Source: a virus. Taken from it: a stretch of DNA of 64,000 bases. The translations under genes were made by a program, and so were the position numbers. The notes under the pieces were generated by a model. That model was not told the origin of the DNA. It worked only from the letters and a program-made list of their open reading frames with translations, and ran no database searches. Position 1 is the first letter of the stretch. Each line of letters opens with the position of its first letter. Shown here piece by piece: positions 1,968 through 30,500 of this stretch. Location: positions 9,239-73,238 of IMG/VR virus record IMGVR_UViG_3300047666_000603. One strand, written 5' to 3'.

Positions 1968-2188
1968 CAGAGTGTATCTTTTCTACCGCTAAACCCAACG
2001 TTAATTAGTGTGTATTTCTAACGCAAATCCACTAACGTTTTTTTTGTTGTGTTGGGTGTTACCCAGTGTGTGAGAATAAGTTGGCAATACAGGATGCTTG
2101 CGCCCCACCCCCTCGTTTATTTATTTTCAATGTAGTGTTGGTTCTTCCAAATATATTTACGTATATTTACGGAAACAAAACAGTAGCA

Positions 2189-4194: not shown

Positions 4195-4295
4195 TGCACC
4201 ATAACACCAAGAGAAGTGCCGTTACTTAATGGCATTTCTCGGCTGTTGGGCCGAGTTTTAATTCGGAATTTCTTTTATTTTCCATTTCCTCTACG

Positions 4296-4303
4296 TATAT
4301 TTG
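4296..4303 (+). promoter_or_regulatory. -7 box TATATTTG for the ligase/PNK/primase operon
   Basis: TAnnTTTG consensus 18 nt before ATG 4321. Confidence 0.6.
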
Positions 4304-4320
4304 GCAAAAATCTAAAACTT

Positions 4321-5214: not shown

Positions 5215-5216
5215 AA

Positions 5217-7873: not shown

Positions 7874-8062
7874 ATGTTATATTGGCATATGGAAAACAAA
7901 GAAATTTCGGTTCTTTTGAAAGAAAGACTACAAGACATTGAAAAAAAATTAAAAGGTAGAGATTTTTATTTAATTAAATATGTAAAAGAAGAGGTTATGA
8001 TGTCCTATTCTGATGGATATAAAGACGCTTCTGATGTTGCTAGAAAGATTTTTTACAAATGA
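7874..8062 (+). CDS. Small hypothetical protein
   Basis: ORF abutting the helicase gene. Confidence 0.5.
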   Translation: MLYWHMENKEISVLLKERLQDIEKKLKGRDFYLIKYVKEEVMMSYSDGYKDASDVARKIFYK

Positions 8063-8159
8063 AAGAATTATTATCAATAGTTATTCCAATATTGCTTGCT
8101 GTTTTGTTATTTTGGTTTTGTTTTATTAGAACCCAAGATTGGGACGGGGGAGATGTATT

Positions 8160-9041: not shown

Positions 9042-9155
9042 ATGAGCGAACAAAGAAGAAGACGACGTAAGATGCAAAGGGAATACGAGAAGTATATGCG
9101 AGAAATACGTAGGGATGCTTTTAAGAGAGCCGAGGAGCAGAAGGAAGAGAAATGA
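9042..9155 (+). CDS. 37-aa Arg-rich peptide (MSEQRRRRRKMQREYEK...)
   Basis: ATG 9042 to TGA 9155, read by eye; below the ORF-track cutoff. Confidence 0.45.
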   Translation: MSEQRRRRRKMQREYEKYMREIRRDAFKRAEEQKEEK

Positions 9156-9160
9156 TTTTT

Positions 9161-9206
9161 AACACTAAGCTAAGTTCCGTTATTTCAATGGAATTTAGCG
9201 GCTGTT
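9161..9206 (+). repeat. Solo (empty) attC-like site
   Basis: AAC-actaa-gctaagttccgtt-atttc-aatggaatttagc-ggct-GTT; same layout as array-terminal sites at 4203, 16588, 26441. Confidence 0.75.
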
Positions 9207-9224
9207 AGAAGTTGTTTCTTTTTT

Positions 9225-13625: not shown

Positions 13626-14798
13626 ATGAACGAAGAAACAAAGGACTTAAAAATGTGGTGTGTAGAACAGGCACTAACCGCTGCGGGCAAACAATACACA
13701 GGCCCGAACGAGGGATTCCCCGAATACCATAACAACACAACTCTCATCGAATTAGCAATCAAAATATACGACTTTCTCAAAGAAGATGGACACACAGACA
13801 CTAATTAACGCGATAGGGGATATTCATTTCCCTAATGAAAAAGCAATACTTAAAGTGAGGGCTTCGGTCTGGTATAAAAGCCTATCAATTAAGGAGAAAT
13901 CACAAACCGAAGAGGACGTAAGGAGGCTACTCGATCAAACACAAAAAGCTCTTTTAGGGGTGCATGAGGTTTACTCCACCCCATTTGACCGCATCACCAT
14001 ACTTTCAATGTTCCATGAGCCAGTGAATCTAATATGGAAAGAGGACAAAACGGTATTAAACGGTAAGCGGGTGAAGCGGCATTACTTCTCATTAGACAAC
14101 GTAGACTACAAGCCAAAAACAATAGCAGACTTTGTTAGTTTGATAGATAGCTTGGAAAGGCATAAGCTCACTCCTAAGTTTTCGGGGGATAAAAGCTCGG
14201 CAGCATTACTATGGAACAAGAGCCGCAATAACACTCAATAGCCATGAAGGGAGTAATTTCGGGAAAACAGAACAGCATGGAGGAAATCTACGTACACTAC
14301 ACAGACGAAGATGGGGAAGAACACACATCCATACATTTCGTAGACCCCGAACTAGCGAACTACATACAGGCGTTAGAGAATGACATAGAGGCGTTATCTA
14401 CGGAAGTGGAGGGCGCAGAGGATACAGCGGAGTATTGGAAACGAATGTTAACCGTCCACATCACAAGCGGAATAAAAGCTAACTAAATGGATTGTAAAGA
14501 GTTAAAAGTATTTTACGAAAAGGTGACGGAAAGCCCTCACTTTATGGTGTACCTCACATTGCAGAATAAGTTAAGGCAAGTGTGTGAGAGTTTCGATGGA
14601 GTGTTCATTGACATCACCTCCGACGACAAAACCTTTGACAACCTAATGAAGTTTAACAAGCAAGCATTAGACGTGTTAGAGGACATGGAGAAGATATGGA
14701 GCAAGATAGATTCATCAAAACAAGCGGAACTTCGAGCAAGCCAAAGGGAGGCGGGAGAAGCATCATTAGAAAGTATGCTAAAGAAATTCAGAGAATGA
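13626..14798 (+). CDS. Four small hypothetical genes (13626-13808, 13786-14241, 14244-14486, 14487-14798)
   Basis: Abutting co-oriented ORFs. Confidence 0.6.
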
Positions 14799-16642: not shown

Positions 16643-16678
16643 CAATAACAAGCCCTCACTAGCAATCGCTTAAATTTG
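16643..16678 (+). promoter_or_regulatory. Putative late promoter CAATAAC-N21-TAAATTTG (portal)
   Basis: Motif copy. Confidence 0.7.
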
Positions 16679-16696
16679 CCCCTAAAGCAAATTTTT

Positions 16697-19039
16697 GTGG
16701 CTAAAACATCAGGTTATATAGGGGCGTTTCCGAGCGAAATTGATAGTCCCGAACAGAAAGCAAAAGAAGAATGGGGGTTAAAGTACGCTCAAGCCATTGT
16801 ATCTTCGTCTGAAAGATCAGATGAAACCTACACTGATAGAAAGGATAGATGGGAAGAGAACAGGCGATACGGTCGCGGCCTCCAAGATATAGATAAGCTA
16901 AAACCAAAAGCAATACCCACAGAGAACGAGTGGGCAACCCTTCCATACGACATAGGAACACCCGTTCCAAAGCAAATCCGTGTCATACAAGAAACCATTT
17001 ACTCCCACCCATACAAACCAAAGGTGGAAGTATTTGACAGCCACAGCCACAGCAGACTAGAGCGAAGAAAGAACGAACTTCTAGCCAAGATGCAGCTTAG
17101 TAAAGAAGTGGCTAACATGAAAGCAGAGGGCATCCTACCTGAGCAATTGAGTTTTCAAAAGCTAGATGGTGCGCCAAAAGACGCGCATGAAGTGGAGATG
17201 TACCTAAAAACCAACGCTAAAACCATTGAGGAAATAGCAATAGAGAAGTTGGTGAGGCGGTCTTTTGCTAGATGTAATATGCCTGCTATTGAGAAGAGGT
17301 TTGTTAGAGATGCTGCCGAAATTCAATGGATGGCTTCGTATACAGGTATAGATGACAATGGTAACTTCTACGCTGAATATATAGACCCAATGCTATCTGG
17401 TTCAAGCTACGTGGAGAACGAAGACTTCTCTGACATGACTTGGGCATATCACGTAAGCTACATAACGGTTGGTGAGTTCCGAGACAAGATGCCCCACCTA
17501 AATGACGACCAAGTTCTAAGTGTCATTCGGCAGAACGTAGGAAACAGACTAAAAGACGACTACAACCTAGAGTTAGGAACACGAAACTACTTCAACCTTT
17601 CATCCGACGAGAGAAACGCACTTGACAGCGTACTCATTGAAGTACTTAATTTTGAAACCCTACAATCAGACAGAGTAACTTACGTAGAGAAAAAACTAAG
17701 CACAGGCGGTTTTGACATAAAGAAAAGAAGTGCTGATTACGAAGGGCCAAAAGACCCCGACTCAAAAAAGAAAACACATAAAGGAATTATAGAGAGAATA
17801 TACAAAGGATGCTTCATAATGAAGACACAGTATATGCTCAAGTGGGGATTAAAGGAAGGCGTAGCATACAAGGTGAGAAAAGGCAAGATGATACACAAGC
17901 CTTTGTTTGGATATGTATTCTACGCACCGGGTATCCTAAACATGGTGAACAAGTCATTAGTGGAAGAAGTGAGACCTCACATTGACACAATGGGTATTCT
18001 TCAACTAAAGATGCTTCACTTTATTGCTTTAGCAGACCCACCCGGTCACGCAATAGACATAACATCAGTTGTAGAGGCAATCAAAGGAATGGGAATGGAA
18101 GGCTTAAAGCCTAAGGACATTGCCGAGATGAAGTCATGGACGGGAAACTACTACTACGCCTCCCGCGATGAAATGGGTAACGCCATAGTACAACCGGGTA
18201 TGAAGCCAATAGAGTTTCAGCCAAGCACACTAGACCAAGCCGTAGAACGATTTGCAATGCTCTACAACAATGAATTGCAGAAAGTGAAGGAAATCTTAGG
18301 CGTGAATGACGCGGTGGATGGAAGCACTCCCGACAAGAAAGCATTAGTGGGTGTTCAAAACCAAGCAATAGCCGCACACAAGACAAGCGTAAGATACTTG
18401 CAGCAAGCTTACCTACATATGGTGCAGGAAATAGCCCAACGCTGCGCCTACTACCAACAACTCGCCATAAAGGAAGGAACTATAAGCGATGAGATGAAAG
18501 ACCTCCTCAGCGAACCTGAATTTGCTGTATTAGATGCAAAGAAGATTGGGGAGCTTATGTATAACATCAAAATGGAACTACTCCCCGACGCGCAGCAGCA
18601 AGCAGAACTTCGGGAACAACTAAACATAGCATTACAGCAAGGAATGATAAGCGTCGATGACGTTATAATGATACAGCGAGTAGCTAAGGAGAGCTTGGAG
18701 AAAGCCGAGGAGATATTTCAAATGCGCGTAGAAAGGAAGCGTGTACAGCAGCAAGAAGCCTCACAACAGCAAATGCAAGCAGAGCAGCAAGCCGCAATGC
18801 AAATACTACAAGCCGAAGCCCAAAGAGATATGCAAATCAACGCTGCTAAAATGGAGATGGAAAACGCGAAAGGCGAAATAGAAATTGCAGCCATACGGGA
18901 AAAAGGAATAGAGGCGCGGATGTCTATGACGGAAGAATACGACCGCAAAGAAAAACTAGCAGAAAAACAAGCTGAACTAGAAGCTCAATACGGAGACACA
19001 AAATCAGAATCGAAGAACACCCCTGCAACACCTAGATAA
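16697..19039 (+). CDS. Portal protein (crAss-like)
   Basis: About 780 aa; N-terminal FP...K..EEWGLKYAQAI; LGVNDAVDGSTPDKKALVGVQ; Gln-rich coiled-coil C-terminus; probable GTG start. Confidence 0.88.
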   Translation: MAKTSGYIGAFPSEIDSPEQKAKEEWGLKYAQAIVSSSERSDETYTDRKDRWEENRRYGRGLQDIDKLKPKAIPTENEWATLPYDIGTPVPKQIRVIQETIYSHPYKPKVEVFDSHSHSRLERRKNELLAKMQLSKEVANMKAEGILPEQLSFQKLDGAPKDAHEVEMYLKTNAKTIEEIAIEKLVRRSFARCNMPAIEKRFVRDAAEIQWMASYTGIDDNGNFYAEYIDPMLSGSSYVENEDFSDMTWAYHVSYITVGEFRDKMPHLNDDQVLSVIRQNVGNRLKDDYNLELGTRNYFNLSSDERNALDSVLIEVLNFETLQSDRVTYVEKKLSTGGFDIKKRSADYEGPKDPDSKKKTHKGIIERIYKGCFIMKTQYMLKWGLKEGVAYKVRKGKMIHKPLFGYVFYAPGILNMVNKSLVEEVRPHIDTMGILQLKMLHFIALADPPGHAIDITSVVEAIKGMGMEGLKPKDIAEMKSWTGNYYYASRDEMGNAIVQPGMKPIEFQPSTLDQAVERFAMLYNNELQKVKEILGVNDAVDGSTPDKKALVGVQNQAIAAHKTSVRYLQQAYLHMVQEIAQRCAYYQQLAIKEGTISDEMKDLLSEPEFAVLDAKKIGELMYNIKMELLPDAQQQAELREQLNIALQQGMISVDDVIMIQRVAKESLEKAEEIFQMRVERKRVQQQEASQQQMQAEQQAAMQILQAEAQRDMQINAAKMEMENAKGEIEIAAIREKGIEARMSMTEEYDRKEKLAEKQAELEAQYGDTKSESKNTPATPR

Positions 19040-21195
19040 TGCCATATACAAAAGCACAAATAGAATGCAGAGAAGCGCATAAGAAATTTGAGCGTAGATA
19101 TGAAGTGAAGAAACACGTTCCTGATGCTATATGGGATTTCCCATACATACGTCCTGAGCCACCTTCCGCTCCCGCCAAAATACACAACTACGGAAAGGCA
19201 AAAGGTGAGCGGAAGTTTCCTTATTACACAGATGAGTTTGTAGATAAAATGGAAGCCCTTGCGAGAGAGGACGTTCTTTCAGAAGAGTATATAAGCTTTG
19301 TGGAAGGGGAATGGAGTAGACGTGTAAAGGGATTCTTTTTTTACAACGGGAACTCTCTTGAATACGTAACAGGACACCACTACTGCACACTGCAATACTG
19401 GAAAATACCTGTAACCAAGAAAGTGAGAGGTGTGAGCCGTAAAGGAAGGTACAAGCCTGACTTTATAGATATGCAGCGGGATATTTGGTACGCTATAGAC
19501 TATGCCCGAAAGTGCGATGTGTCTACAGGTGTGTGCTTAGTCGGCTTCCGTCGATCAGGAAAAACAGCTACAGCATTAGCGGAAGGCTATTGGGACTCCA
19601 CAGAGAACCCTGAAAGCGTATTCGCCATACAAAGTAAACCGGGTAACGATTCCAAGAAGCAATTTAAGAAGCTAGTGGATAGTTGGAAGCTAGTTCCCAT
19701 TTGGTTCAAGCCGAAAGATACAGAGGAAACAACCCAAACCACACGCCTAGTATTTGGAGAAAAGAAACAGAAAGGACGTAGCATTGAAGACCGTGTATAC
19801 CAAGAAGTACTTAACTCCGTAATATACGCAGAGAACTCAAAGGAAGAAGCACTCGATGGTGAGTATGTCAGCTTTGTGTTTCAGGATGAGCTTGGGAAAA
19901 GCCCACGAACACTGAACGTAGAAGAAAGGTGGAATATTACAAAGGAAGCCTTATTTGATGGTAGTGATGTAATTGGGAAAGCCTTCTTAACATCAACCGT
20001 AGAAGATCAGAATAAATATGGTAGCGCACACTTCAAGAGAATATTTGACGACTCCGACCCAAACAAGCTACTACCAAACGGCCTAACAAACTCAACACTA
20101 TTCAGACTATTCCTTCCTGCTTATTACGGGTTTCGCGGGGAAGAGAAAAACAAGAAAATAAGCTTCGTAGACGAATGGGGATACACAAACGTAAAAGAAT
20201 CTAAGGAATACCACCAAAAGATGTACGACTCTAAGAAAGGAGACTCACTGCTTTCTTACAGACGTAAATACCCCATGTCTATAAATGACTGTTGGATTAC
20301 GAGCGATGCTAAGAACAACTTTAGCAGCCAACGCTTAATGGAGCAGAAGATATGGAATGACGGAGTGAACTCTACAGAATGGGTGAGAGGTAATTTCATG
20401 TGGAAGCAAGGAAGGAAATGGACGGAAGTTGATTTTTATCCCGATGAACAACAAGGAAGGTGGTTAGTAGCTTGGCAACCCGACGAACACGACCGCAACC
20501 AATGGGATTTATACAACGGAACACAGAAACGACCTAAGCGTTCTTTCTGCTTTACGGGAATTGACCCATTTAGTCACGGGAAAGTGGTGGATGATGAGCA
20601 AGGCTCTAACGGCGCAGCAGTGACAATACTAAAAAGCTACGGAGGAACAGACCTTAAAGAATCTGTCGTATGCGTTTACAATTACAGACAAGCAGACCCT
20701 AACGCGCAGATAGAGGACATGATAATGCAATGCGTGTATTATTCTTCTCCCGCGCTAATTGAAAGCAACGTAGGATTTGCAATAAACGGATTCCAAGACA
20801 AAGGCTACTATGGATTCTGTGAGATGAACCCATTAGAGACCCGTCAGGAGATTATCAGGAAAGGAAAGAAGGGATATGCCACAACGTCAAAAGAAAGCGT
20901 AGAAAACCTTATAAGCAACGTAGCAAGCTATATATTGGATAGGGTGGGGAAGCGAGAAGATGGTGAGTGCGGATATTTCCCACCGCAGCTCGTAGACCAA
21001 TGCCTAAACTTCAACCCTGAAAAACGCGGCCCCTATGACCTTGTAATGGCATTAGGGATAGCTGTAATACTTCTCCGCAACGAAAAACAAAGCACCAACA
21101 TAGGTTGGGATTTTAGCGATTGGGTTCCTAGAGCAAGTGTTTCCACCTACGAAAGAGTGAAAACAGGGCTAAAAAAGAGTCAAATCATCGGCTAG
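19039..21195 (+). CDS. terL: Terminase large subunit
   Basis: Walker A RRSGKT, Walker B FQDELGK, STV, nuclease GIDPF...DLVMA. Confidence 0.92.
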   Translation: MPYTKAQIECREAHKKFERRYEVKKHVPDAIWDFPYIRPEPPSAPAKIHNYGKAKGERKFPYYTDEFVDKMEALAREDVLSEEYISFVEGEWSRRVKGFFFYNGNSLEYVTGHHYCTLQYWKIPVTKKVRGVSRKGRYKPDFIDMQRDIWYAIDYARKCDVSTGVCLVGFRRSGKTATALAEGYWDSTENPESVFAIQSKPGNDSKKQFKKLVDSWKLVPIWFKPKDTEETTQTTRLVFGEKKQKGRSIEDRVYQEVLNSVIYAENSKEEALDGEYVSFVFQDELGKSPRTLNVEERWNITKEALFDGSDVIGKAFLTSTVEDQNKYGSAHFKRIFDDSDPNKLLPNGLTNSTLFRLFLPAYYGFRGEEKNKKISFVDEWGYTNVKESKEYHQKMYDSKKGDSLLSYRRKYPMSINDCWITSDAKNNFSSQRLMEQKIWNDGVNSTEWVRGNFMWKQGRKWTEVDFYPDEQQGRWLVAWQPDEHDRNQWDLYNGTQKRPKRSFCFTGIDPFSHGKVVDDEQGSNGAAVTILKSYGGTDLKESVVCVYNYRQADPNAQIEDMIMQCVYYSSPALIESNVGFAINGFQDKGYYGFCEMNPLETRQEIIRKGKKGYATTSKESVENLISNVASYILDRVGKREDGECGYFPPQLVDQCLNFNPEKRGPYDLVMALGIAVILLRNEKQSTNIGWDFSDWVPRASVSTYERVKTGLKKSQIIG

Positions 21196-21516: not shown

Positions 21517-22656
21517 ATGAGCGAAGTGCAAGAACAAGTAAGTAATCCATTTGCAGGGATGGTTCACGGCACAAGAACAGCCCCATCAGCACCATTAGCG
21601 GAAGCACCGTCAACAGTAGTGGATGATGAAGAAGTGGTAGAGGACACACCCGACGTGGTGGTGGACATATCCGAAGAGGCTACAGAAGAAGTGAAGGCGG
21701 AAGAGCCTAAAGAAGAAGTGGTGGCGGATGACGTAGTGACGTTAGACTTCGGGCAAAAAGTAGAACCACAAGAAGTAACAACAGAAACAATAGACGCATA
21801 CAAAGAGCGACTAAGCACACTAGAGGCGGAATTAGCTAAGGCAAAAGAAACACCCAAGCTAGACCCCCGCATAGAGAAATTAAACGACATCATCCGCAAC
21901 GGAGGCGACATAAACCAATCCGTATGGGAGATGCAATCAAAAGACTACTCTGACATTTCATTGCAAGAAGTGGAGAACACTTTAAGCATAGTGAAAGACA
22001 AGTTGAAGTATTTAGATGGGGATGACGCTGACATGGTGAACATCTACCTAGACGACAAATACCCAACACTAAGAGGTAAGAAAGACGCTGACGACTTTGA
22101 CACAGATGAAGAGTTTGGCGCACAAAAGAAACGAGAAGAAACATTACTGCGGAAAGAGGCAAAAGAATTTGTTCCAAAGCTGAAAGACTTTCAGGAAGGG
22201 ATGAGATTGCCAAACGCACCGCAACATAAACAACAAGAGGAATACGAACAAGCAGTGAGGGCTTATCGGACAGAAGCTATAACGAAAGTTAGTGAAATTA
22301 ACTCGTTTGACATACAGCTTACAGATGACCTTACAGTGAGGATTCCAATTACAGGGGATGCCGCTAAATATGCTGACTCCATTGCCACTGAGCCTGAGAA
22401 TCAAGCACAGTATTTTAATAGGTATAGGAATGAGGATGGAAGCGTGAATTTCCAAAAGCTTAAAGTAGAGACCTACCGCAGCCAAAACCAAGAGCAGATT
22501 GATAAAGCCTTGTTCGATCAGGGCCGAAGTTACGGGAAGAAGGAAGCAATACAGGAACTACAAGGTGACAACGGAGGCATGACAAGGAAAGCAGCCCCCA
22601 CCACCAAAAAAACTAACAACCCGTTTTCGGGTATGAAACATTCAAAAAGAAACTAA
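21517..22656 (+). CDS. Putative capsid scaffolding protein
   Basis: Acidic N-terminus, helical body, immediately upstream of MCP; NPF.GM motif at both ends. Confidence 0.65.
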   Translation: MSEVQEQVSNPFAGMVHGTRTAPSAPLAEAPSTVVDDEEVVEDTPDVVVDISEEATEEVKAEEPKEEVVADDVVTLDFGQKVEPQEVTTETIDAYKERLSTLEAELAKAKETPKLDPRIEKLNDIIRNGGDINQSVWEMQSKDYSDISLQEVENTLSIVKDKLKYLDGDDADMVNIYLDDKYPTLRGKKDADDFDTDEEFGAQKKREETLLRKEAKEFVPKLKDFQEGMRLPNAPQHKQQEEYEQAVRAYRTEAITKVSEINSFDIQLTDDLTVRIPITGDAAKYADSIATEPENQAQYFNRYRNEDGSVNFQKLKVETYRSQNQEQIDKALFDQGRSYGKKEAIQELQGDNGGMTRKAAPTTKKTNNPFSGMKHSKRN

Positions 22657-22659
22657 CAG

Positions 22660-24111
22660 ATGGGATATACACCAGTAGGTATAGGGGGAAACTCCCCACA
22701 AGGGGTTGGTCTAGCAAGGACTGACTTTAACTTTTTAGGAGCGCAGACTCTAAACGGATTTTCCGTACTGCATCCTGACGTAGACCCAACGTTGACAAAA
22801 CGTTATGGGCATCAAGACGACATGATCTCAATGTTTGACAAATTGGGTCTTGCACGTCGAGTAACGAATAGTACAATCTTCCGTCACTACGAAGAAGAGC
22901 GACTACGACCACCTGTGGTTATGGACGCTAGTAGCGTTGGAGGCGCTGGAGCAACAGTGCAGATTCCAATTTTAGCGGCTGACCAGTTTAGTATTCCGCA
23001 ATCAGCTCCGTACATCGGATCAGGAACAACTAATGCTGTAGCACCTCGACTTGGTGATGTAGGGTTTTTCTCTAACAACGTAGAGGCTGTAGTAACTGCT
23101 GTAGCTGCTGATGGCACTACGTTTGATGCAACACCAACACAAACAGGCGAAGTAATTCCAGAAATCACATCTGGCGATGAGTTTGTCATCACTTCCGCTG
23201 TATCTAATGAAGCGGGTACATTCGCAGATAGAGGTTCATTCTCAAGTCGTGTAATCTACTACCAAAACAACACACAAATCTTCACTGAGCGTCACGAAAT
23301 TTCTGGCTCTGCATTAGGTGAAGAAACGTGGATTGACTTTGATGGTAAGTACGGACAAGGAAAGTACTGGTACTACTACGATATGGACAGAACGTTGAGA
23401 CGACACAAAAGCTCGTTTGCTAACGGTTGCATCTTCGGAAAGGACATCACTAACGTTACGTTGGCGGGAATCGCTGGATTTGAGCAAGCTAAGAAAACAA
23501 AAGGTTTGATCCCAACAATTCAAGCTTCGGGTATTAATGAAGCCTTTACAACAGGAGCCTTGACGCTAGCTGATGTTGAGAATGTTCTTGATGACTTGTC
23601 AGAGCAAAGTGCTGCTAACGAGTATATGCTTCTTTGTTCTCAAGGGTTCCGTAAGGACATTAACAAACTCGCAAGAGAAGGTGATGGGCTTACTTTCAAT
23701 CAGGATTCTAGGTCTTCTATAATCTTCGCAGACTTCAATGGCGGTGTTCAAGCTGTAGACTTTGATATAGATACTGTGAAACACCTAGGATACACATTGA
23801 ACATTAAAACTCAACGTGCATTCAGTGATCCAACCCAACAAGGAGCAATCACAGCATACAATAGTTTTGCTGTCGGAATGCCAATGGGAGAGGTGAACAT
23901 CTACGAAGAACTAGGTGGAAGCTATGTAAAAACACCTGCAATGCAAGTGGTATACAAAGGATCAGGCCCAGAAGGAGGAGATCGTTCAATGGACGAATAC
24001 GTACAAACTCCAAGAGAGACAGGTAAAGACAACTTAGTACACGTAATGGTGACAGAGGGTGGTGTTGAAACAAACGCCATTAACCACTGCTTCACAATGC
24101 AAGGTTCCTAA
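22660..24111 (+). CDS. Major capsid protein (crAss-like HK97 fold)
   Basis: 483 aa, KRYG, YQNNTQIF...ISGSA, KGLI; followed by a terminator. Confidence 0.85.
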   Translation: MGYTPVGIGGNSPQGVGLARTDFNFLGAQTLNGFSVLHPDVDPTLTKRYGHQDDMISMFDKLGLARRVTNSTIFRHYEEERLRPPVVMDASSVGGAGATVQIPILAADQFSIPQSAPYIGSGTTNAVAPRLGDVGFFSNNVEAVVTAVAADGTTFDATPTQTGEVIPEITSGDEFVITSAVSNEAGTFADRGSFSSRVIYYQNNTQIFTERHEISGSALGEETWIDFDGKYGQGKYWYYYDMDRTLRRHKSSFANGCIFGKDITNVTLAGIAGFEQAKKTKGLIPTIQASGINEAFTTGALTLADVENVLDDLSEQSAANEYMLLCSQGFRKDINKLAREGDGLTFNQDSRSSIIFADFNGGVQAVDFDIDTVKHLGYTLNIKTQRAFSDPTQQGAITAYNSFAVGMPMGEVNIYEELGGSYVKTPAMQVVYKGSGPEGGDRSMDEYVQTPRETGKDNLVHVMVTEGGVETNAINHCFTMQGS

Positions 24112-24128
24112 GTAGTAATAAATGCAAT

Positions 24129-24159
24129 GGCGCGGGGAAAGACCTCGCGCCTTTTTTTT
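24129..24159 (+). terminator. Intrinsic terminator after MCP
   Basis: ggcgcgggg-aaaga-cctcgcgcc followed by T run. Confidence 0.85.
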
Positions 24160-24176
24160 ACATATACAATCAACAA

Positions 24177-25235
24177 ATGGCAAACTTAGTCTATAGATTA
24201 GGACAATCAGGCAGACAGAAGAGAAGCAACCCATCAGATTTAGGTTATTACGCAACAGGTTCAAGAGACGGAGGAAATCAAGACCTCGCACCACCTATGC
24301 CCTATTCGAGAAGGTTTAAAGCAATTCACACTGTAAGAGTAGAGAAAGACGGGAAAATAATTCCCCGCAAAGTGGCCTACAGCCCCGACGAAGAAAGTAT
24401 TTTTATGGATGATTGGGTGGATAAAAACTCAAAAGTTGTAAAGATTAAGTTCAAGAAGGGGATGCTCATGGTGGATGAGGATAATGAACCACAACTTATT
24501 GAACTGTTAAGTTTATTGGACGGGAATGAATCAAAACCAAATAGGGACACTAAAACCCCTGTTTTATTCCATCAGATTAACAAATCAAAGAAAGCAGAGG
24601 AAGTTTTGTTAAACGAAGAGCGTGTAGCAAAAGAACTAGCCGTATATTGGGACTTACCATACACAAGAAAGCAAGCAATTGCAAATTGGGTGGGGATAAG
24701 AACAGCAAACCAAGACCCGAATATGTGGCAGCACAGCCTATTCCTATGGGCGAAACACAACGTCAAGAAGTTTAAAGAAGTTTATCACAACCCCGACCTA
24801 GAGTACATGGATTTCATTTCACGAGCAGAGAACATCGGCTTATTGAAGTTTAACACAAATACATGGAAATACGGAGAAGTGAAGATGCTAGTAGTGAGTA
24901 GGAATGATATGCGCTACGAGAAGCTAGTGGAAAGGCTCTTAAACGAACCCTCGCTGTACAAGTCTATTGCTGACGACGTACTTCGGGCAGAAGGTAAAAG
25001 CAACCTCATAGTAGCAGGGAAGGAGAAATTTGACTTTGATGCAATGACAGCCGAAGACCTTTTGGACAAAGCTAAGAAGCATGACTTAGTGAAATACAAA
25101 GGAGGAACAGGATTCTACATTGTGGACACAGGTAAAGCTGTGGGTAAATCAACCAAGGAGGACGCTATTAAGTCAATAGAGACAGACCCTTATTTGAGAC
25201 AACAAATAGAGGAACAGTTCAAAAAGCTCATCTAA
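24177..25235 (+). CDS. Protein following MCP (crAss capsid-module-type position)
   Basis: 352-aa ORF, IKFKKGML.V; call rests mainly on position. Confidence 0.55.
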   Translation: MANLVYRLGQSGRQKRSNPSDLGYYATGSRDGGNQDLAPPMPYSRRFKAIHTVRVEKDGKIIPRKVAYSPDEESIFMDDWVDKNSKVVKIKFKKGMLMVDEDNEPQLIELLSLLDGNESKPNRDTKTPVLFHQINKSKKAEEVLLNEERVAKELAVYWDLPYTRKQAIANWVGIRTANQDPNMWQHSLFLWAKHNVKKFKEVYHNPDLEYMDFISRAENIGLLKFNTNTWKYGEVKMLVVSRNDMRYEKLVERLLNEPSLYKSIADDVLRAEGKSNLIVAGKEKFDFDAMTAEDLLDKAKKHDLVKYKGGTGFYIVDTGKAVGKSTKEDAIKSIETDPYLRQQIEEQFKKLI

Positions 25236-25260
25236 TAAAAAGGAGGTGATGTTCTAAAAT

Positions 25261-25294
25261 AAAAAGCCCTGCATTTGTTTGCGGGGCTTTTTTT
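25261..25294 (+). terminator. Intrinsic terminator (AGCCCTGC...GCGGGGCTTTT family)
   Basis: GC stem flanked by A and T runs. Confidence 0.85.
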
Positions 25295-25297
25295 GTT

Positions 25298-25305
25298 TAT
25301 ATTTG
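25298..25305 (+). promoter_or_regulatory. -7 box TATATTTG directly upstream of array 3
   Basis: TAnnTTTG, 5 nt before AAC 25311. Confidence 0.6.
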
Positions 25306-25364
25306 CTCATAACGTTAAATGTAAAAAGCATTTTAATGATTTTTAAATAATGTTGTAAGTAGTT

Positions 25365-25476
25365 GCTGCGGTATGCAAGAGTAAATGACTTCTAATTGTC
25401 GCCCTGCAAAGGTTGGTCAAAGCAGCGTCCGCAAAACGTGCCGCAAGGTTCGAGGGTTCGAATCCCTCTCGTAGCA
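25365..25476 (+). tRNA. Atypical tRNA-like RNA (Cys-like GCA anticodon) with about 33 nt extra in the D-loop
   Basis: Acceptor GCTGCGG/TCGTAGC, T-arm GAGGG-TTCGAAT-CCCTC, D-stem TGC/GCA, variable arm CC-GCAA-GG. Confidence 0.6.
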
Positions 25477-25735
25477 GCTATTACTTACAACGTTTAGTAT
25501 AAAAATAGTAAGGGGTGGAGGTTGAAATCTCCCGACTCATAGGTAGCTATAATCTTGTCCATATCCTATGCCAAGCCCGTAGGTTATAGACCCCTTATTT
25601 TATTTACACATTGTTGTATGTCTTTTTTAATTGCATACAACTACAAAGCTATGTGGCGTGGCTACAACAACGCTGAAATAAACAAACAAGTCGCCCAGCC
25701 ATGCCATATAGGTAATGTTGTGGTGCGTTTTTATT

Positions 25736-25957
25736 ATGAACTTGAAATATGCAATACAAGTAAAAAAAACAGGGAAGTGGTTAAACTTAGATTTTCATGA
25801 CGGGTCTGAAATAATAACTGTAAATGACTTTACGAAGGCTTATCATTTCGATGACTCAGAAGCGGCTGAAAAATTCCTTTCTTATCATAGGCTTGATAAA
25901 GGGAATCACGAGATGTTTAAGCTCGAAGTATTTGCTAGGCCGATTGAATGGTCTTAA
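25736..25957 (+). CDS. Cassette hypothetical protein
   Basis: Fills cassette 25717-~25965. Confidence 0.7.
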   Translation: MNLKYAIQVKKTGKWLNLDFHDGSEIITVNDFTKAYHFDDSEAAEKFLSYHRLDKGNHEMFKLEVFARPIEWS

Positions 25958-26065
25958 TGCCCTACGGCTATGATAAGAACTGGCCGAACAAAAACACTAG
26001 ATTCAAGCCGTAACGCTGCCGCGGCTTGTTTTTATCAATTGTTGGCAGCAGTTAAATTTTTTAAG

Positions 26066-26431
26066 ATGATTCGAATTATTAAAGACAAAACAGAACTGAG
26101 AAAAGGAAACTTAATTTTTGTTGATAGCATAGTATTCCCACCAAATTTTATTACCGCTAAACCGCAAATTCTAGGTGATGGATGGGAAGAGGATATAAAT
26201 AAAGAGTGGGAAAATTGCGCCTTTCTAAATGCTAAAGAGCAATACATGAAAGATTTATTCGGCAATGAAATGGAGAAAAACGAGGTGAAAGTTGAGCAAT
26301 TGGAAAAAGAAGATTTCGACACATTTCCAAAGTGGAAGATGAGTTACAAAAAGGAAACTAAAGAGGCTTCTTTTATACACCAAGTTCAAAACAATTATGA
26401 GGATTGGACTGGTGAAAAGCTCATCCCTTAA
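26066..26431 (+). CDS. Cassette protein, paralogue-like to 51962-52429
   Basis: ELRKGNL...IHQVQNNYEDWTGEKL. Confidence 0.7.
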   Translation: MIRIIKDKTELRKGNLIFVDSIVFPPNFITAKPQILGDGWEEDINKEWENCAFLNAKEQYMKDLFGNEMEKNEVKVEQLEKEDFDTFPKWKMSYKKETKEASFIHQVQNNYEDWTGEKLIP

Positions 26432-26503
26432 TTGCATCCCAACACCAAGAGAAGTGCCGTTTTTTCAATGGCATTTCTCGACTGTTGTGAGCATATTCTT
26501 TAC

Positions 26504-26539
26504 CAATAACAAACACCCTTTGTCTTCTTTGTAATTTAG
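26504..26539 (+). promoter_or_regulatory. Putative late promoter CAATAAC-N21-TAATTTAG
   Basis: Motif copy. Confidence 0.65.
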
Positions 26540-26557
26540 CGGGAAAATTAGCCCGTT

Positions 26558-27310
26558 ATGCCCACCACTGTAGGAGACGTAGTAAGTCAATATTTAATAG
26601 AGCAGGATAATAACTCCCAACATGGGCGACCTCGGCTTATAAACATAGCAATAAGCGGCCTAAAAGAGCTTCATTTTGACGTTACAGGCGCACCCGTATT
26701 CACGCAACTAACATTAGACAGCAATAAGACTGCGGCTGTTCCTACGGGCTTAATAAACGTCATAGGGATGTTTATGAACTCAGTTAACTACGGGCTATTG
26801 GAAATTGTAGAATCAAAACAACTCCCGCCAAACCTTATAAACAGCCAAGGAAGCACCGTTATAGCAGACAAATCCACATTCGGAAACGACCCTTCTTTTG
26901 GTTTTGGAGGAGGAATGGGAGGAAGCAACGTAGGCTCGGATTTTCAGGGCGGAGAATTTCGCGGGGGAGTGTATAGTGGCGTAGGCTCCAACCCATACAA
27001 ATACAATTGGAACAGAAGCACAAACAGATTTGAGTTCTCAAGCAACGTCACCAACCCTATATTAGAATACCTCGGCCAATTAGGAACAACAGACGGGAAG
27101 CACTGTGTACCTGAGTTCGCTGTGGACGCACTAATACAATGGATTCGATACGTAGACACCCGCAACAAAGGAATAAGCCCTAGTGAGAAGCGATATAACC
27201 AACAATCATGGGTGAACGCAAAGAACTTAGTGCTACGGAGGATGGCAAATATTACACCAGCGGGTTTACGTGAAGGCTTTAGAAAAAATTATTCACTAAC
27301 AGTTAAGTAA
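26558..27310 (+). CDS. Tail ring protein
   Basis: GLKELHFDV, ILEYL, VPEFAVDALIQWI; upstream of muzzle gene. Confidence 0.7.
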   Translation: MPTTVGDVVSQYLIEQDNNSQHGRPRLINIAISGLKELHFDVTGAPVFTQLTLDSNKTAAVPTGLINVIGMFMNSVNYGLLEIVESKQLPPNLINSQGSTVIADKSTFGNDPSFGFGGGMGGSNVGSDFQGGEFRGGVYSGVGSNPYKYNWNRSTNRFEFSSNVTNPILEYLGQLGTTDGKHCVPEFAVDALIQWIRYVDTRNKGISPSEKRYNQQSWVNAKNLVLRRMANITPAGLREGFRKNYSLTVK

Positions 27311-27311
27311 A

Positions 27312-27521
27312 ATGGCAGATGTTAACGCAAACGCAATTCCGCTCACAGCAAGCACAACCAAAATAATGTTTATTGATTATGATGCCCCAACAGGTAATGG
27401 GGTGACAACCGTAACAATAGATGCTGTAGCGTACACCGTTCTAGACGATGGTAATGAAAACAACAGTTGGGTGGTGATAGATGGATTTGTAGCGGGAGGA
27501 AGAATAGTGGCAACCATATAA
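27312..27521 (+). CDS. Small putative virion protein
   Basis: ORF coupled within the tail operon. Confidence 0.55.
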   Translation: MADVNANAIPLTASTTKIMFIDYDAPTGNGVTTVTIDAVAYTVLDDGNENNSWVVIDGFVAGGRIVATI

Positions 27522-27525
27522 GAAT

Positions 27526-30500
27526 ATGCAAGAGAGTAAGTCAAACATAATAGACAATAAATTATTCTTCGCTGGAAAAATGAATTTGGACTTAACGCCC
27601 GAACTCCAAAAGAACGGGGAGTACGGCGCAGCGTTAAATATAAACCCTGTAAATTATGCAGGGGGCTTTGTCGGCACTCTAACAAACGTAACAGGTAATG
27701 AAGAGGTGGATTACACCTTTACAGGACTAACAGCAGACCCATTCATAAAAGTGGTGGGAAGTAAGCTAGATGAGAAGCGTAGACGTGTCTATTATTTAAT
27801 ATATGCTCAGAATGCTGGAAGCGACCAATACGCATACATTGTCTATTACTCTTACGACACGCAAGATATTACAACAGTGTTTAGCTCATCCAACCTTCTT
27901 GAGTTCGACCCCAACTTCACTATTTCAGACGTAAACATAATTTACGACGATGAATTGGGTGACACCCTTATGTGGGTGGATAGAAACACAGAGCCAAAGA
28001 GATACAATGTAACAGCGGGAGATAATAGATTCAACAACTACACAGCGGCCACAACAGGATTTACAGTGGGCGACATTGTATTTGCAAACGGAGATGAAAG
28101 CATTTCCGCGATAAGACAGTTTATTCCCTGCCGCGCATTAACAACAACCAACGACTACCCCGCAATAGACTATACAACGGGAGAATTAGACACGGTAGAC
28201 TGGGAAACCCTACCTGTAGGACAATGCTACCCACCATTCTTAGTTGACACCCTATTCTATCAGAAAGTACCTAGCCCTTATTGGAGTCCAAATGGAACAT
28301 TTAGGTATGATGATGGAACGGAAGAAGTGGAGGGTGTAGCTACATTTCTAAGAAGAAAGAGTTATCAGTTTGCTTACGCCTATATTTATTTTGATGGATC
28401 ATTAAGCGAGGTGAGTCCTTTTAGTGAATCTGTTCTTTCTCAAGAATTGACAAGTGCTATATTTACTATTGGAGAGGTAACAGCCAACCCTGACTACCCA
28501 ACACCATCAGGGATAGACGTTAAAGTTCCAATACATTCATTTAGGTACACGGATGTTGATGATGTGGCTTCTGTGACGGAATTTCCCCATGTAATGATAG
28601 CGCGGGTTAAGCTGCTTATTCGGGAAGTTCCTACAGATAGAACACCTACGGATTGGCTTGAGTGGTTAGATATTCCATACGATGAGTTGTATAAATACAA
28701 CCTGTCAAGCTCAAACATATCAGAGGGGTTTCCTGTGGCGGGAGATGCGGGAACGTATTATTACGATTGGTTTTCGGGAAGCTATTCTTCCGCGCCATCA
28801 GGAGAAACAAGCCAAATCACCACTATAACAGCTAGATATGACGGAACTCAAACCCTCATTCCTGTAGATGTAAAATGGGCGTCAACAAACTCTTACGCTT
28901 CGCCAAAAAAAGCAAACAGCCAAGACATCTCTGAGAATAGGACAGTGATGGGCGGAACTACAGACGGAATGAACGTGAGTAGGGATGTGGTGAGTAGTAT
29001 AAGTGATAACATTAGTTTGGATTTATTTACCCAAACCCCTAATATATCAGTAAACCCAACACAAACAGAAATAAACAAATACAACACATCGACAACAAGT
29101 CAGTCTTATAACTCTGGTACAGGCTTGTACACTGGTGTTTTTGATTTGCAAGTCCCGCTAGTTATTGTTAATTTTGATATTCTTTTTCAAGTTGATTTTA
29201 CTCTTGAGTGGAAAACAATCCAATCAGGCACTGTAACAAGCATAACCTTATACAATATTCAAACTAGCGTGTCTGGTATACCTGATGAGTTTGCGACATA
29301 TAAAGAATTTTTAGAATCAACAATTAACGACCAAACCCCGTTCACCGCAATTGTAGATGATGCAACAGGAGAATTAACTATTACAAGGGTGTTTAGCTCA
29401 ACTTTTTCTAACGCATACGATGTAGATATAGTTAGCAACGTGGGCTTTTTCTCTGTAGATACTTATCTCCCATTTAGAACATACAAAAACCACTCAACAC
29501 AACAATTTGGATTTGTATTCAGAGATGAGTTGGGTAGGCCAACACCTGTAATAACGGGGGATTGGGCAACCCTATATATCCCTCACTTTATTAACCAAAC
29601 CAACCAACCACAAATATATGGTGGCTGGATAAAAGGAATAAGTAATTTCACCACGCCTCCCGAAGCTAGGGTGATGGATATTGTAAGGAAGCGTAGCGAA
29701 AGCTTTCAAAACTTCATTCAATTTGCATTAAGCAGTAGCAACACAGTGCAAGAGAATTGGAATTGGGATAGACCATACGTAATAGGCTTTGAAAACCTAG
29801 AGATAGATGACTCTGTCCCTAGCGTTATACCAAGCAACAAAAACCTTTACATAAGTCTAAACTCAGTGAATGGTGGGGATGGAAACGCCTACAACAGCCT
29901 TTTTGATAGCGATATACTTTCATTCCTACCACAAGAAGGTGATGTGCTTAGATTTTTGTACAGGACTGATCAGGATGGAATTATAATTGAAGAGTATAAC
30001 GCCTCATTTAATATTAGTAAATACGACGATAGAACTAATACAATAGTTATTAACTTCGAGGATTTAGAGGAAAACGAGCCTGATTTAGCTGCCTACCTAG
30101 AGGGCTTTATTACAGTGTCTTTTGAATGGACTGTTAGAGTGCTGTGTGAGGTGATACAAAAGCCGACACAATCAGACAATGAGTTTTATTGGGAAACATC
30201 CGCACAACTAAGCTGTACGGATGGAGCTGTAGATATAGATGGAACAGCCTTTCAAGGAAACATCACTATATTTGGAGATACATACCTAAAGCTAAGGGGG
30301 TATTGCGTGACTTACAACTCAGAAAACCCTGCGATAAGTTTTTTCATAAACTTCGTGTTACAAGACTTAAACTTCAATGACTTTGCTCCAACATGGAACA
30401 CAGGACAAGGCCGACCTAACAAACAAGTGAGAAGCTTGCGTAGAGGGCAAAATGAGTACGTTGAGGTGACTAGAGACAACCTACTGAGGTATTCAGAGCA

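What the first reader, a model, noticed from the sequence alone, without database searches (positions are those of the whole stretch)
25352..25491. A tRNA-like RNA packaged as a gene cassette, with two GCA-loop hairpins
Seen: the first cassette of array 3 has no ORF but a canonical T-arm (GAGGG TTCGAAT CCCTC), a 7-bp acceptor stem, a TGC/GCA D-stem and a small variable arm. About 33 extra nt interrupt the D-loop and include GCC-CTGCAAA-GGT, while the normal anticodon position holds GCGT-CCGCAAA-ACGT (4-bp stem, C instead of U33). No CCA is encoded. Inference: a tRNA-Cys derivative, decoy for anticodon nucleases, or intron-containing tRNA; the genome also encodes an RNA ligase and PNK.
Basis: partly seen in the sequence, partly recalled or inferred. 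Interest (0 to 1): 0.75.

Follow-up and report, generated by a model that had tools for sequence, protein, structure and literature searches.

The report
Rearranged leucine-type tRNA relic in phage
A cold-water phage carries one odd, gene-sized RNA element that is clearly derived from a long-arm (leucine-type) transfer RNA but has an extra 32-base piece in one loop and a stunted anticodon arm, so it probably no longer reads codons and may be a relic or a tRNA mimic.

Summary
At 25365-25476 (+) there is a 7-bp acceptor stem joined directly to a perfect T-arm, with U8, a 3-bp D stem, a small GCAA-capped variable hairpin and no CCA. Rfam's tRNA model matches below threshold (22.6 bits; cut-off 29). 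Default ARAGORN finds nothing. Such an acceptor/T-arm pair arises 0.0175 times per shuffled genome.

A model I built from seven class II tRNAs aligns the whole element (25.4 bits, E 2e-5). It is the model's only hit in the window, and there were none in 90.7 kb of related phage DNA.

The last 37 nt match a T4-like phage tRNA-Leu(UAA) at 33 of 37. So the ancestry is class II, Leu-type, not tRNA-Cys.

The D loop holds about 32 extra nt. The anticodon stem has only 3-4 bp, with C33.

I found no homologue, no RNA data, no intron signature, no integrase and no splicing endonuclease.

The unit lies in a variable island. A relative with an 82% identical capsid protein carries other cargo there.

Best reading: a rearranged, non-decoding tRNA-derived element. 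A decoy role is untested. This scan had noted the same stretch before on this same genome, not on other DNA.

The parts
25310..25351 (+). AT-rich boundary sequence upstream of the unit. Homology with relative L007 ends at 25307.
   Evidence: One search gives the break in homology. In one search this stretch (about 25310-25354) stands in other contigs of runs X3, X4 and X5 with different flanks (loose ends before 25310 and behind 25344/25354). Summed contig depths in this bin are higher (28.9 and 46.2) than in the bins on either side.
25352..25361 (+). Left arm of the terminal inverted repeat (GTTGTAAGTA).
   Evidence: Perfect 10-nt complement of 25482-25491. It is part of I1, the longest inverted repeat in the window, and one of six perfect GTT...AAC pairs.
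25362..25364 (+). 3-nt extension that pairs with 25476-25478 and stacks on the acceptor stem.
   Evidence: The minimum-free-energy fold pairs all of 25352-25371.
25365..25371 (+). Acceptor stem, 5' strand (GCTGCGG).
   Evidence: Rfam tRNA alignment positions 1-7; R1 alignment.
25372..25373 (+). Positions 8-9 (T, A).
25374..25376 (+). D stem, 5' strand (TGC). It is also the start of the first copy of an imperfect 9-nt direct repeat, TGCAAGAGT.
   Evidence: R1 alignment; sequence.
25377..25382 (+). 5' part of the D loop (AAGAGT). It supplies A14 and G15.
   Evidence: R1 aligns AAGAG to the D-loop consensus.
25383..25414 (+). About 32 nt of extra sequence inside the D loop. The boundaries are ambiguous by several nt because of the repeat TGCAAGAGT / TGCAAAGGT at 25374 and 25405. 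It holds hairpin TGAC-TTCTAATT-GTCG (25386-25401) and GCC-CTGCAAA-GGT (25401-25413).
   Evidence: R1 places 40 nt where the model has 6. There is no other copy in the window at up to 3 mismatches.
25415..25421 (+). 3' part of the D loop (GGTCAAA). It supplies G18, G19 and A21.
   Evidence: Direct reading of the sequence. MAFFT aligns 25405-25424 with the D arms of real class II tRNAs.
25422..25424 (+). D stem, 3' strand (GCA).
25425..25439 (+). Hairpin at the anticodon position: G26, then a 3-bp stem (4 bp if G25425.T25439 is counted), with loop CCGCAAA (C at 33, GCA at 34-36).
   Evidence: R1 alignment deletes two of the five stem pairs.
25440..25451 (+). Class II variable arm GCC-GCAA-GGT, followed by TC (C48).
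   Evidence: Exact 25-nt match (25441-25465) to a tRNA-Ser(UGA) variable arm plus T arm. 30 of 32 to phage tRNA-Leu.
25452..25468 (+). T arm GAGGG-TTCGAAT-CCCTC.
   Evidence: It is the only T-arm with a GTTCGAATC-type loop among the four TTCRANN stem-loops that the scan found in the genome.
25469..25476 (+). Acceptor stem, 3' strand (TCGTAGC), and discriminator A. No CCA follows.
25482..25491 (+). Right arm of the terminal inverted repeat (TACTTACAAC), after a 3-nt bulge at 25479-25481.

Best explanation
The element is a rearranged copy of a class II (long variable arm) tRNA gene of the leucine type. It is carried as the only ORF-less unit of a hypervariable accessory island in a 73-kb tailed phage. 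It keeps the half of a tRNA that processing and charging enzymes recognise:
- a 7-bp acceptor stem, discriminator A and a perfect T arm;
- U8, A14, G15 with C48, G18-G19 and A21;
- a GCAA-capped variable hairpin.

It has lost the decoding half. About 32 nt, bounded by an imperfect 9-nt direct repeat, sit in the D loop between the A14-G15 part and the G18-G19 part. The anticodon stem is cut to 3-4 bp, and its loop has C33.

Inferred mechanism, not shown: it is transcribed on the + strand with the island and folds into the acceptor/T-arm helix and elbow. The host's tRNA end-processing enzymes and CCA-adding enzyme can then handle it, but it does not decode. It is therefore either a decaying captured tRNA-Leu gene or a tRNA mimic. 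The sequence alone does not separate those two.

The 10-nt terminal inverted repeat is a feature of the island's units in general, not of this RNA.
For: tRNA nature:
- Rfam tRNA 22.6 bits over 25365-25476 on the + strand only.
- Chance rate 0.0175 per shuffled genome.

Class II nature:
- Model R1 was built from 7 Ser/Leu/Tyr tRNAs of an unrelated bacterium. It aligns all 87 model positions at 25.4 bits, E 2e-5.
- That is the only R1 hit at E<=10 in the 64-kb window. There are no hits in 90,748 nt of 12 related loci.

Leu type:
- Of the 30 best rows of 561 phage records, 22 are annotated tRNA-Leu, 4 are unannotated and 4 are weak tRNA-Trp matches. The tRNA-Leu and unannotated rows are 93.8% identical over 32 nt, E 9e-5.
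- 33 of the last 37 nt match phage TNG87 tRNA-Leu(UAA), with the same T arm, the same CCGCAAGG variable hairpin and the same discriminator A.
- The only exact genome match to the 25-nt variable-arm-plus-T-arm stretch is a tRNA-Ser(UGA).

Non-decoding:
- R1 deletes 2 of 5 anticodon-stem pairs, and the loop is CCGCAAA.
- Default ARAGORN rejects it.
- The review PMC7609411 (passages read) states that the anticodon stem consistently has 5 bp.

Accessory cargo:
- Relative L007 (capsid protein 82% identical) is homologous up to 25307 and again from 26528. Between those points it has 2.66 kb of other sequence where this phage has 1.22 kb.
- No tRNA-like element is found in L002-L013.
- Other units bracketed by GTT...AAC hold small ORFs.
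Against: - No homologue was found anywhere, so there is no covariation and no test of selection.
- The score is below Rfam's cut-off and below all 40 real tRNAs of the comparison genome, which scored 31.3-77.7 bits.
- The tools disagree about the middle. ARAGORN on deletion variants prefers a CAA loop at 25416-25422 (131 of 279 calls). Rfam on the 3' part prefers the CTGCAAA loop. R1 also gives a second alignment starting at 25406, at 23.3 bits.
- By nearest-neighbour energy the R1/first-reader fold (-26.8 kcal/mol) is 4.9 kcal/mol worse than the unconstrained fold (-31.7).
- Phage genomes rarely keep dead DNA, and the acceptor and T arms are flawless. Both points argue for some retained function rather than decay.
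- R1 rests on 7 tRNAs from one GC-rich genome, and its E-values are rough.
Confidence: 0.55

Rival explanations
1. It is a functional tRNA mimic used in counter-defence. The RNA keeps the acceptor/T-arm/elbow surface and displays anticodon-like loops (CTGCAAA and CCGCAAA). It would soak up or misdirect a host tRNA-targeting nuclease, or stand in for a cleaved class II tRNA, alongside the phage's RNA ligase and PNKP.
For: - The phage carries an RNA-repair pair and a Tad6-type anti-Thoeris gene, so it invests in anti-defence.
- Phage tRNAs are known to neutralise tRNA-cleaving defences: PMC10264068, PMC11464382 and PMC11555353 (search listing and abstract starts only).
- All universal tertiary nucleotides survive while the insert sits in the D loop between G15 and G18.
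- The unit is identical in a second sample's 13,271-nt contig, whose flanks differ at 6 places. This is weak: about one difference would be expected in 140 nt.
Against: - No homologue and no expression data.
- The ligase/PNKP genes are 20 kb away and are common in phages without such an RNA.
- No known nuclease target is implied by the sequence.
- The known cases use near-canonical tRNAs, not rearranged ones.
Confidence: 0.15
2. It is a working decoder after processing. Either the D-loop insert is tolerated or removed, and the RNA reads UGY (GCA loop) or UUG (CAA loop at 25416-25422) codons, charged by LeuRS through A73.
For: - ARAGORN at default settings calls tRNA-Leu(caa) once 16 nt or more of 25374-25411 are deleted (131 variants), and tRNA-Cys(gca) in 6 variants.
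- The 3' part is Leu-like with discriminator A.
- Engineered tRNAs tolerate extra hairpins, though in the variable arm (PMC7590224, abstract read).
Against: - The deletion test does not discriminate. 59 of 60 shuffled middles also gave calls, and 4 of 60 gave more than 279.
- The CAA loop overlaps the stretch that best matches real D loops.
- The anticodon stem has 3-4 bp, with C33.
- No intron signature and no splicing endonuclease.
- No other tRNA in the genome.
Confidence: 0.07
3. It is an RNA processing or stability signal. The tRNA-like fold, within a 20-bp terminal helix, is cut by RNase P, RNase Z or RNase III. That would separate or stabilise transcripts of the island, as tRNA-like punctuation does elsewhere.
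For: - The 5' and 3' flanks form 10 + 3 further pairs stacked on the acceptor stem (z -3.6).
- It lies just after the capsid-operon terminator at 25261-25292 and before small accessory genes.
- Other units also have complementary ends.
Against: - Relatives manage the same junction without it.
- The complementary ends occur on ORF-bearing units too, so they need not be an RNA feature.
- No transcript data.
Confidence: 0.08
4. It acts at the DNA level. The whole 140-nt unit is a folded recombination site or hairpin of an integron-like cassette system, and the tRNA resemblance is incidental or is a captured target site.
For: - Perfect GTT...AAC terminal repeat.
- The boundary sequences 25310-25354 and 25595-25641 occur in other contexts in metagenome contigs.
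- The island is variable.
Against: - The tRNA match is strand-specific and extends over acceptor, D, variable and T parts, with 33 of 37 identity to a real tRNA-Leu.
- No tyrosine recombinase in the record.
- The 24-nt T-arm-plus-acceptor stretch has no exact copy in 185,579 species genomes, so it is not an attP-type copy of a known host tRNA.
- GTT...AAC pairs at up to 1 mismatch are only modestly enriched: 59 against 43.1 +/- 6.0, largest shuffle 60.
Confidence: 0.05

Closest known systems
Phage-encoded class II tRNA-Leu, e.g. tRNA-Leu(UAA) of T4-like Klebsiella phage TNG87, PV402692.1 30529-30613
   Same: Identical T arm, the same CCGCAAGG variable hairpin and discriminator A. 33 of the last 37 nt are identical, the acceptor 3' strand is similar, and the D stem has 3 bp.
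   Different: The real tRNA is 85 nt with an 11-nt D loop, a 5-bp anticodon stem and U33, and it is called by standard tools. The element is 112 nt with a 45-nt D loop, a 3-4 bp anticodon stem and C33. It has no CCA and is missed by default ARAGORN and by Rfam's cut-off.
Non-canonical natural tRNAs (allo-tRNAs and relatives; Mukai et al. 2017, PMC5389517; review PMC7609411)
   Same: tRNAs with long variable arms and unexpected anticodons, some found in phages. The authors suggest some act as suppressors or regulatory non-coding RNAs (abstract read).
   Different: Allo-tRNAs are defined by 8/4 or 9/3 acceptor/T stems. This element is 7/5. No D-loop hairpin insertion appears in the passages I read (12 of 28 places).
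Phage tRNAs that evade or neutralise tRNA-targeting defences (PMC10264068, PMC11464382, PMC11555353)
   Same: A phage-borne tRNA-type gene with an altered anticodon loop, in a genome that also carries RNA-repair and anti-defence genes.
   Different: Those are functional, near-canonical tRNAs. I saw only the search listing and abstract starts. Nothing here shows function.
PeSL mobile regulatory cassettes of T4-type phages (PMC2839356, PMC4122927)
   Same: Short conserved motifs flank small variable genes in hyperplastic regions of phage genomes and are proposed to mediate modular shuffling (titles and abstract starts). Here the boundary sequences recur in other contexts and the island differs between relatives.
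   Different: PeSLs are promoter-terminator stem-loops of myoviruses. Here each unit's own ends are complementary (GTT...AAC), and no promoter function is shown.
Integron gene cassettes
   Different: No IntI-type integrase in the record. The host is a lytic-looking phage. Recombination is not shown.

Membership tests
Canonical tRNA (Rfam RF00005) | Reaches the family's gathering score (29 bits) | tested here: not met
   22.6 bits. No match at gathering threshold in the window. The 40 real tRNAs of genome G003 scored 31.3-77.7 bits.
Canonical tRNA | Detected by ARAGORN at default settings | tested here: not met
   0 genes in the window and in the whole 73,238-bp genome.
Canonical tRNA | 7-bp acceptor stem contiguous with a 5-bp T stem, and a T loop of TTCRANY type with G53-C61 | tested here: met
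   25365-71 with 25469-75, and 25452-68.
Canonical tRNA | Universal tertiary nucleotides U8, A14, R15-Y48, G18-G19, A21 | tested here: met
   By direct reading under the R1/first-reader fold: T25372, A25378, G25379 with C25451, G25415-G25416, A25421. This depends on placing the insert between 25383 and 25414.
Canonical tRNA | 5-bp anticodon stem and a 7-nt loop with U33 | tested here: not met
   3 bp (4 with one G.U); loop CCGCAAA with C33. The rule is as stated in PMC7609411.
Canonical tRNA | D loop of normal size (about 7-14 nt) | tested here: not met
   45 nt between 25377 and 25421. R1 has 40 nt where the model has 6.
Class II tRNA (Leu/Ser/Tyr type) | Hairpin variable arm between the anticodon arm and T arm, and a 3-bp D stem | tested here: met
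   GCC-GCAA-GGT at 25440-49. R1 gives 25.4 bits, E 2e-5, over the full model length. Exact 25-nt match to a tRNA-Ser variable arm plus T arm.
tRNA-Leu | Discriminator A73 and class II scaffold (identity rule recalled); similarity to annotated tRNA-Leu | tested here: inconclusive
   A25476. 22 of the 30 best phage rows are tRNA-Leu, and 33 of 37 match one of them. But there is no Leu anticodon at the anticodon position, and charging is not testable here.
tRNA-Cys | Class I scaffold, U73 and GCA anticodon (identity rules recalled) | tested here: not met
   GCA is present in two loops, but the scaffold is class II and the discriminator is A.
Intron-containing tRNA | Intron at 37/38 or a bulge-helix-bulge motif, or a group I intron; a splicing endonuclease available | tested here: not met
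   The insert is in the D loop. ARAGORN's intron mode calls it only at -ps80, and a similar lowered threshold (-ps85) makes 36 calls in the genome. Bulge-helix-bulge-like motifs: 5 hits against a mean of 1.17 in 300 shuffles at the strictest setting, not tested for significance; removing the one examined would not restore a normal D loop. No intron family in Rfam at E<=10. No PF01974.
Integron gene cassette | attC-type site recombined by an IntI tyrosine recombinase | tested here: inconclusive
   The terminal inverted repeat and variable locus are present. No PF00589 match at E<=1 in the record. The record is rated 61% complete by CheckV, although it has direct terminal repeats.
tmRNA | tRNA-like domain plus a tag reading frame; detected by ARAGORN | tested here: not met
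   No tmRNA at default settings. Only a 60%-threshold 'permuted' call. Pair 3:70 is U-A, not G.U (the identity rule is recalled).
Bacterial Y RNA (YrlA) tRNA-like module | Match to the Rfam family; RNA ends in the Ro-binding stem rather than at the acceptor stem (architecture recalled) | tested here: not met
   No Y RNA family appears among the 38 matches at E<=10 in 25200-25700. Here the RNA ends flank the acceptor stem.

The most novel reading that the evidence does not exclude
A mobile phage cassette delivers a purpose-built tRNA mimic. It is a leucine-type class II scaffold that keeps every contact needed for folding, end-processing and perhaps charging. Its decoding arm is disabled. It carries an added hairpin domain at the solvent-exposed part of the D loop, displaying a canonical anticodon-like loop (CTGCAAA). 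It would act as a decoy or antidote against tRNA-cleaving antiphage nucleases, in a genome that also carries RNA ligase/PNKP and Tad6.
Probability: 0.13. Interest if true: 0.8.

Novelty: new variant of a known kind. Interest (0 to 1): 0.4.

Why it matters
Phage tRNA genes are now known to be weapons against tRNA-cleaving defences. A tRNA scaffold that keeps its recognition half, loses its decoding half and gains an extra hairpin domain would be a new design in that conflict. It would also be the first RNA cargo in the cassette-like accessory islands of this phage group. If it is only a decaying captured tRNA-Leu gene, it is ordinary. It would still show that these islands pick up RNA genes as well as small ORFs, and that standard tRNA finders miss such relics.

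Tried and rejected
**Homologue searches that found nothing useful**
- blastn of 25300-25560 and megablast of 22000-30000 against 50,697 phage records: no match.
- blastn of the unit against plasmids: no match.
- Exact or gapped patterns in IMG/VR:
  - T arm plus acceptor: 0.
  - The two GCA loops: 2 chance hits in coding DNA.
  - The upstream boundary sequence: 0. I later saw that most other copies differ at 25330, so this pattern was too strict.
  - The D-arm copy: 0.
  - The D-loop halves with a gap: 8 chance hits, none near a tRNA.
- Species genomes: 0 for the 24-nt T arm plus acceptor.
- Earlier notes of this scan, searched by sequence: only this same genome.

**Relatives**
- Relatives were found through the capsid protein. 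They lack the element.
- Single-protein locus searches found none.

- 279 of 2650 deletion variants are called.
- But 59 of 60 shuffled middles also give calls, so the test cannot name the anticodon.

**Other negative or inconclusive checks**
- Folding energies do not choose between models.
- TAATGTTG as a promoter-like box is not enriched: 4 matches against 3.9 expected. WWTGTTGTR is not enriched either: 9 against 8.4.
- The 10-mer of the terminal repeat is not a dispersed family.
- No listed run that holds the stretch is on record as RNA, so nothing can be said on expression.
- Run X3 has no contig over 25376-25439. This is a hole at low depth and not evidence of absence.
- The Atlas look-up of the neighbouring 153-aa ORF gave only unnamed clusters.
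- Supplementary files of papers were not opened.
Full report
**Setting**

The window is bases 9239-73238 of a 73,238-bp virus record with 127-bp direct terminal repeats. Around the finding, all on the + strand, lie:
- a portal gene (16676-19039);
- a large terminase (19039-21195);
- an SU10-type major capsid protein (22660-24111);
- a 352-aa gene (24177-25235);
- virion proteins from 26558 onward.

An intrinsic terminator stands at 25261-25292. Far upstream the phage encodes a Tad6-type protein, an RNA ligase and a PNKP. DNA runs that hold the stretch are labelled ice metagenomes. None is on record as RNA.

**The observation**

The canonical register is the one Rfam uses:
- acceptor stem 25365-71 with 25469-75 (7 pairs, two of them G.U), contiguous with the T stem;
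- T25372 as U8;
- discriminator A25476, followed by GCT rather than CCA.

Rfam's tRNA model matches 25365-25476 on the + strand at 22.6 bits. That is below the 29-bit cut-off, with E 0.028 for a 501-nt search of all families. Its alignment uses only the acceptor stem, positions 8-9, the start of the D arm and the T arm.

Default ARAGORN finds no tRNA or tmRNA in the window or in the whole genome.

A scripted search asked for a canonical T arm with a contiguous 7-bp acceptor stem 40-139 nt upstream. It finds this one site in the genome and 0.0175 per genome in 400 shuffles.

The 112-nt core is not unusually stable (z -0.77). The 144-nt unit is (z -3.6), because its ends pair: 25352-61 with 25482-91 perfectly, then three more pairs after a 3-nt bulge, stacked on the acceptor stem. 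This is the longest inverted repeat in the window.

**What kind of tRNA it derives from**

- An exact scan of 185,579 species genomes for the 24-nt T arm plus acceptor strand found nothing. It is therefore not a copy of a known host tRNA end.
- The 25-nt stretch covering the small hairpin and T arm hit one genome. There it is the variable arm and T arm of a tRNA-Ser(UGA).
- I then took the seven class II tRNAs (4 Ser, 2 Leu, 1 Tyr) of that genome and built covariance model R1.
- R1 aligns the element over all 87 model positions at 25.4 bits, E 2e-5 in 1 kb. It is the only hit at E<=10 in the 64-kb window. R1 finds nothing in 90,748 nt of related phage loci.
  - D stem TGC/GCA (25374-76 with 25422-24);
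  - 40 nt where the model's D loop has 6;
  - G26;
  - an anticodon-position hairpin in which two of five stem pairs are missing, with loop CCGCAAA;
  - variable arm GCC-GCAA-GGT.
- blastn of 25405-25479 against phage records gave significant matches (E 9e-5, 30 of 32). The annotated ones are tRNA-Leu genes of T4-like Klebsiella, Erwinia and Serratia phages: 22 of the 30 best rows, with 4 unannotated and 4 weak tRNA-Trp.
- Against tRNA-Leu(UAA) of phage TNG87, 33 of the last 37 nt are identical, including the T arm, the CCGCAAGG hairpin and discriminator A.

The scaffold is therefore class II and Leu-like. It is not tRNA-Cys, which by recalled identity rules is class I with U73.

**The rearrangements**

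- The D loop is 45 nt long.
- Its 5' end (AAGAGT) supplies A14 and G15, which can pair with C25451 at position 48. Its 3' end (GGTCAAA) supplies G18, G19 and A21.
- The extra roughly 32 nt lie between them. This is the part of the D loop whose length varies among tRNAs (recalled knowledge).
- An imperfect 9-nt direct repeat (TGCAAGAGT at 25374, TGCAAAGGT at 25405; 7 of 9) is spaced 31 nt apart. That makes the exact insertion point ambiguous and suggests a duplication or slippage origin (direct reading).
- MAFFT accordingly aligns the second copy, 25405-25424, with the D arms of real class II tRNAs.
- GCAA occurs four times in the 78-nt middle. The chance of three or more is 0.005 for that word, but 43% of shuffles have some 4-mer three times.
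- CCGCAA occurs twice, 12 nt apart. The 'GCA loops' may therefore be diverged copies of the GCAA-capped variable hairpin rather than anticodon loops. That is inference.

**Why the anticodon cannot be named**

- ARAGORN of 2650 deletion variants at default settings: 131 Leu(caa), 86 Arg(tct), 41 with a 4-nt anticodon, 7 Ile(aat), 6 Cys(gca), 4 Pyl(cta), 3 Phe(aaa) and 1 Trp(cca).
- However, 59 of 60 shuffled middles between the same acceptor and T arms also give calls, and 4 of 60 give more than 279.
- Rfam on the 3' part picks the CTGCAAA loop, at 16.1 bits.
- R1 gives a second alignment from 25406 at 23.3 bits.
- Constrained folding gives -31.7 kcal/mol unconstrained, -30.3 for the CAA model and -26.8 for the R1/first-reader model.
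- I prefer the R1/first-reader model. It alone keeps all the universal tertiary nucleotides and agrees with the alignment to real class II tRNAs. This is a judgement, not a proof.

**Intron and splicing**

- The insert is not at 37/38.
- ARAGORN's intron mode calls a tRNA only at a lowered threshold. A similar lowered setting (-ps85) makes 36 calls across the genome.
- Bulge-helix-bulge-like motifs numbered five in the unit against a mean of 1.17 in 300 shuffles. I did not test that excess for significance. Excising the one I examined would leave a 26-nt D loop.
- No tRNA-intron endonuclease domain, no reverse transcriptase and no CCA-adding enzyme above cut-off is encoded.

**The 'cassette'**

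- Relative L007 (capsid protein 82% identical) is collinear up to 25307 and again from 26528. Between those points it has 2.66 kb of unrelated sequence where this phage has 1.22 kb.
- L007's units are also bracketed by GTTGT...ACAAC repeats.
- In this window there are six perfect 10-nt GTT...AAC pairs. Three that I checked hold small ORFs.
- At up to one mismatch the enrichment is modest: 59 against 43.1 +/- 6.0.
- In metagenome contigs, the boundary stretches 25310-25354 and 25595-25641 stand next to other sequences, with higher summed depth in those bins.
- One 13,271-nt contig of another sample carries the element unchanged, while its flanks differ at six places.
- No tyrosine recombinase is encoded.
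- So 'accessory unit in a shuffling hot spot' is supported. 'Integron cassette' is not shown.

**Verdict**

This is a real, tRNA-derived element of class II, Leu type. It has an enlarged D loop and a crippled anticodon arm, it has no homologue in what I could search, and its expression is unknown. Most likely it does not decode.

Whether it is a relic or a mimic is open. The intact recognition half, and the placement of the insert where the fold tolerates it, keep the mimic or decoy reading alive at modest odds.

The same stretch had been noted before in this scan, on this same genome only.

Noticed in passing
window 2066-2800: ORF with a strong match to Pfam Tad6, the type I Thoeris inhibitor (1.9e-37). 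This is an anti-defence gene in the early region.
   Followed up: no
window 4216-6110: Adjacent RNA ligase (PF09414) and bifunctional PNKP (kinase plus HAD phosphatase). This is the classic tRNA healing-and-sealing pair.
   Followed up: partly
window 4195-4248, 9153-9207, 26433-26487 (decayed copy near 3247): A repeated hairpin-forming element of about 55 nt, 81-95% identical between copies (families D5 and D19). The copies stand just upstream of the RNA ligase gene, the 715-aa gene and the 250-aa virion gene. The last copy closes the island that holds the tRNA-like unit.
   Followed up: no
window 25310-25354 and 25595-25641: Short boundary sequences that occur in several other sequence contexts in ice-metagenome contigs, with higher summed contig depth in those bins. 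Most other copies have G instead of A at 25330.
   Followed up: partly
window 25492-25612: The stretch after the unit can fold with a long stem (AAGGGGT...ACCCCTT) enclosing small hairpins. The fold is not significantly stable (z -1.7; 10 of 200 shuffles as good), and no Rfam family matches.
   Followed up: partly
L007 7160-9820: At the same junction, a relative with an 82% identical capsid protein carries 2.66 kb of different small ORFs. These include units bracketed by GTTGTGTGCA...TGCACACAAC (7277-7693) and GTTGTGCCAC...GTGGTACAAC (7740-8344).
   Followed up: partly
window 13836-13932 and 37476-37572: A 97-nt direct repeat at 77% identity, shared between a 151-aa ORF and the 2109-aa structural gene (family D3). 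This may be a shared protein module.
   Followed up: no
window 25243-25258: A strong Shine-Dalgarno-like AAGGAGGT followed by ATG TTC TAA, a two-codon mini-ORF. It lies between the 352-aa gene and its terminator.
   Followed up: no
window 25970-26431: The 153-aa ORF in the same island has no Pfam or PHROG match. Its nearest Atlas structure clusters are unnamed, and two of the four rows are mostly from Bacteroidota. That is a weak hint about the host.
   Followed up: partly
window 40906-42927: The 673-aa protein has weak, sub-threshold matches to BppL_N and Mtd_N domains. No reverse transcriptase is present in the genome.
   Followed up: partly
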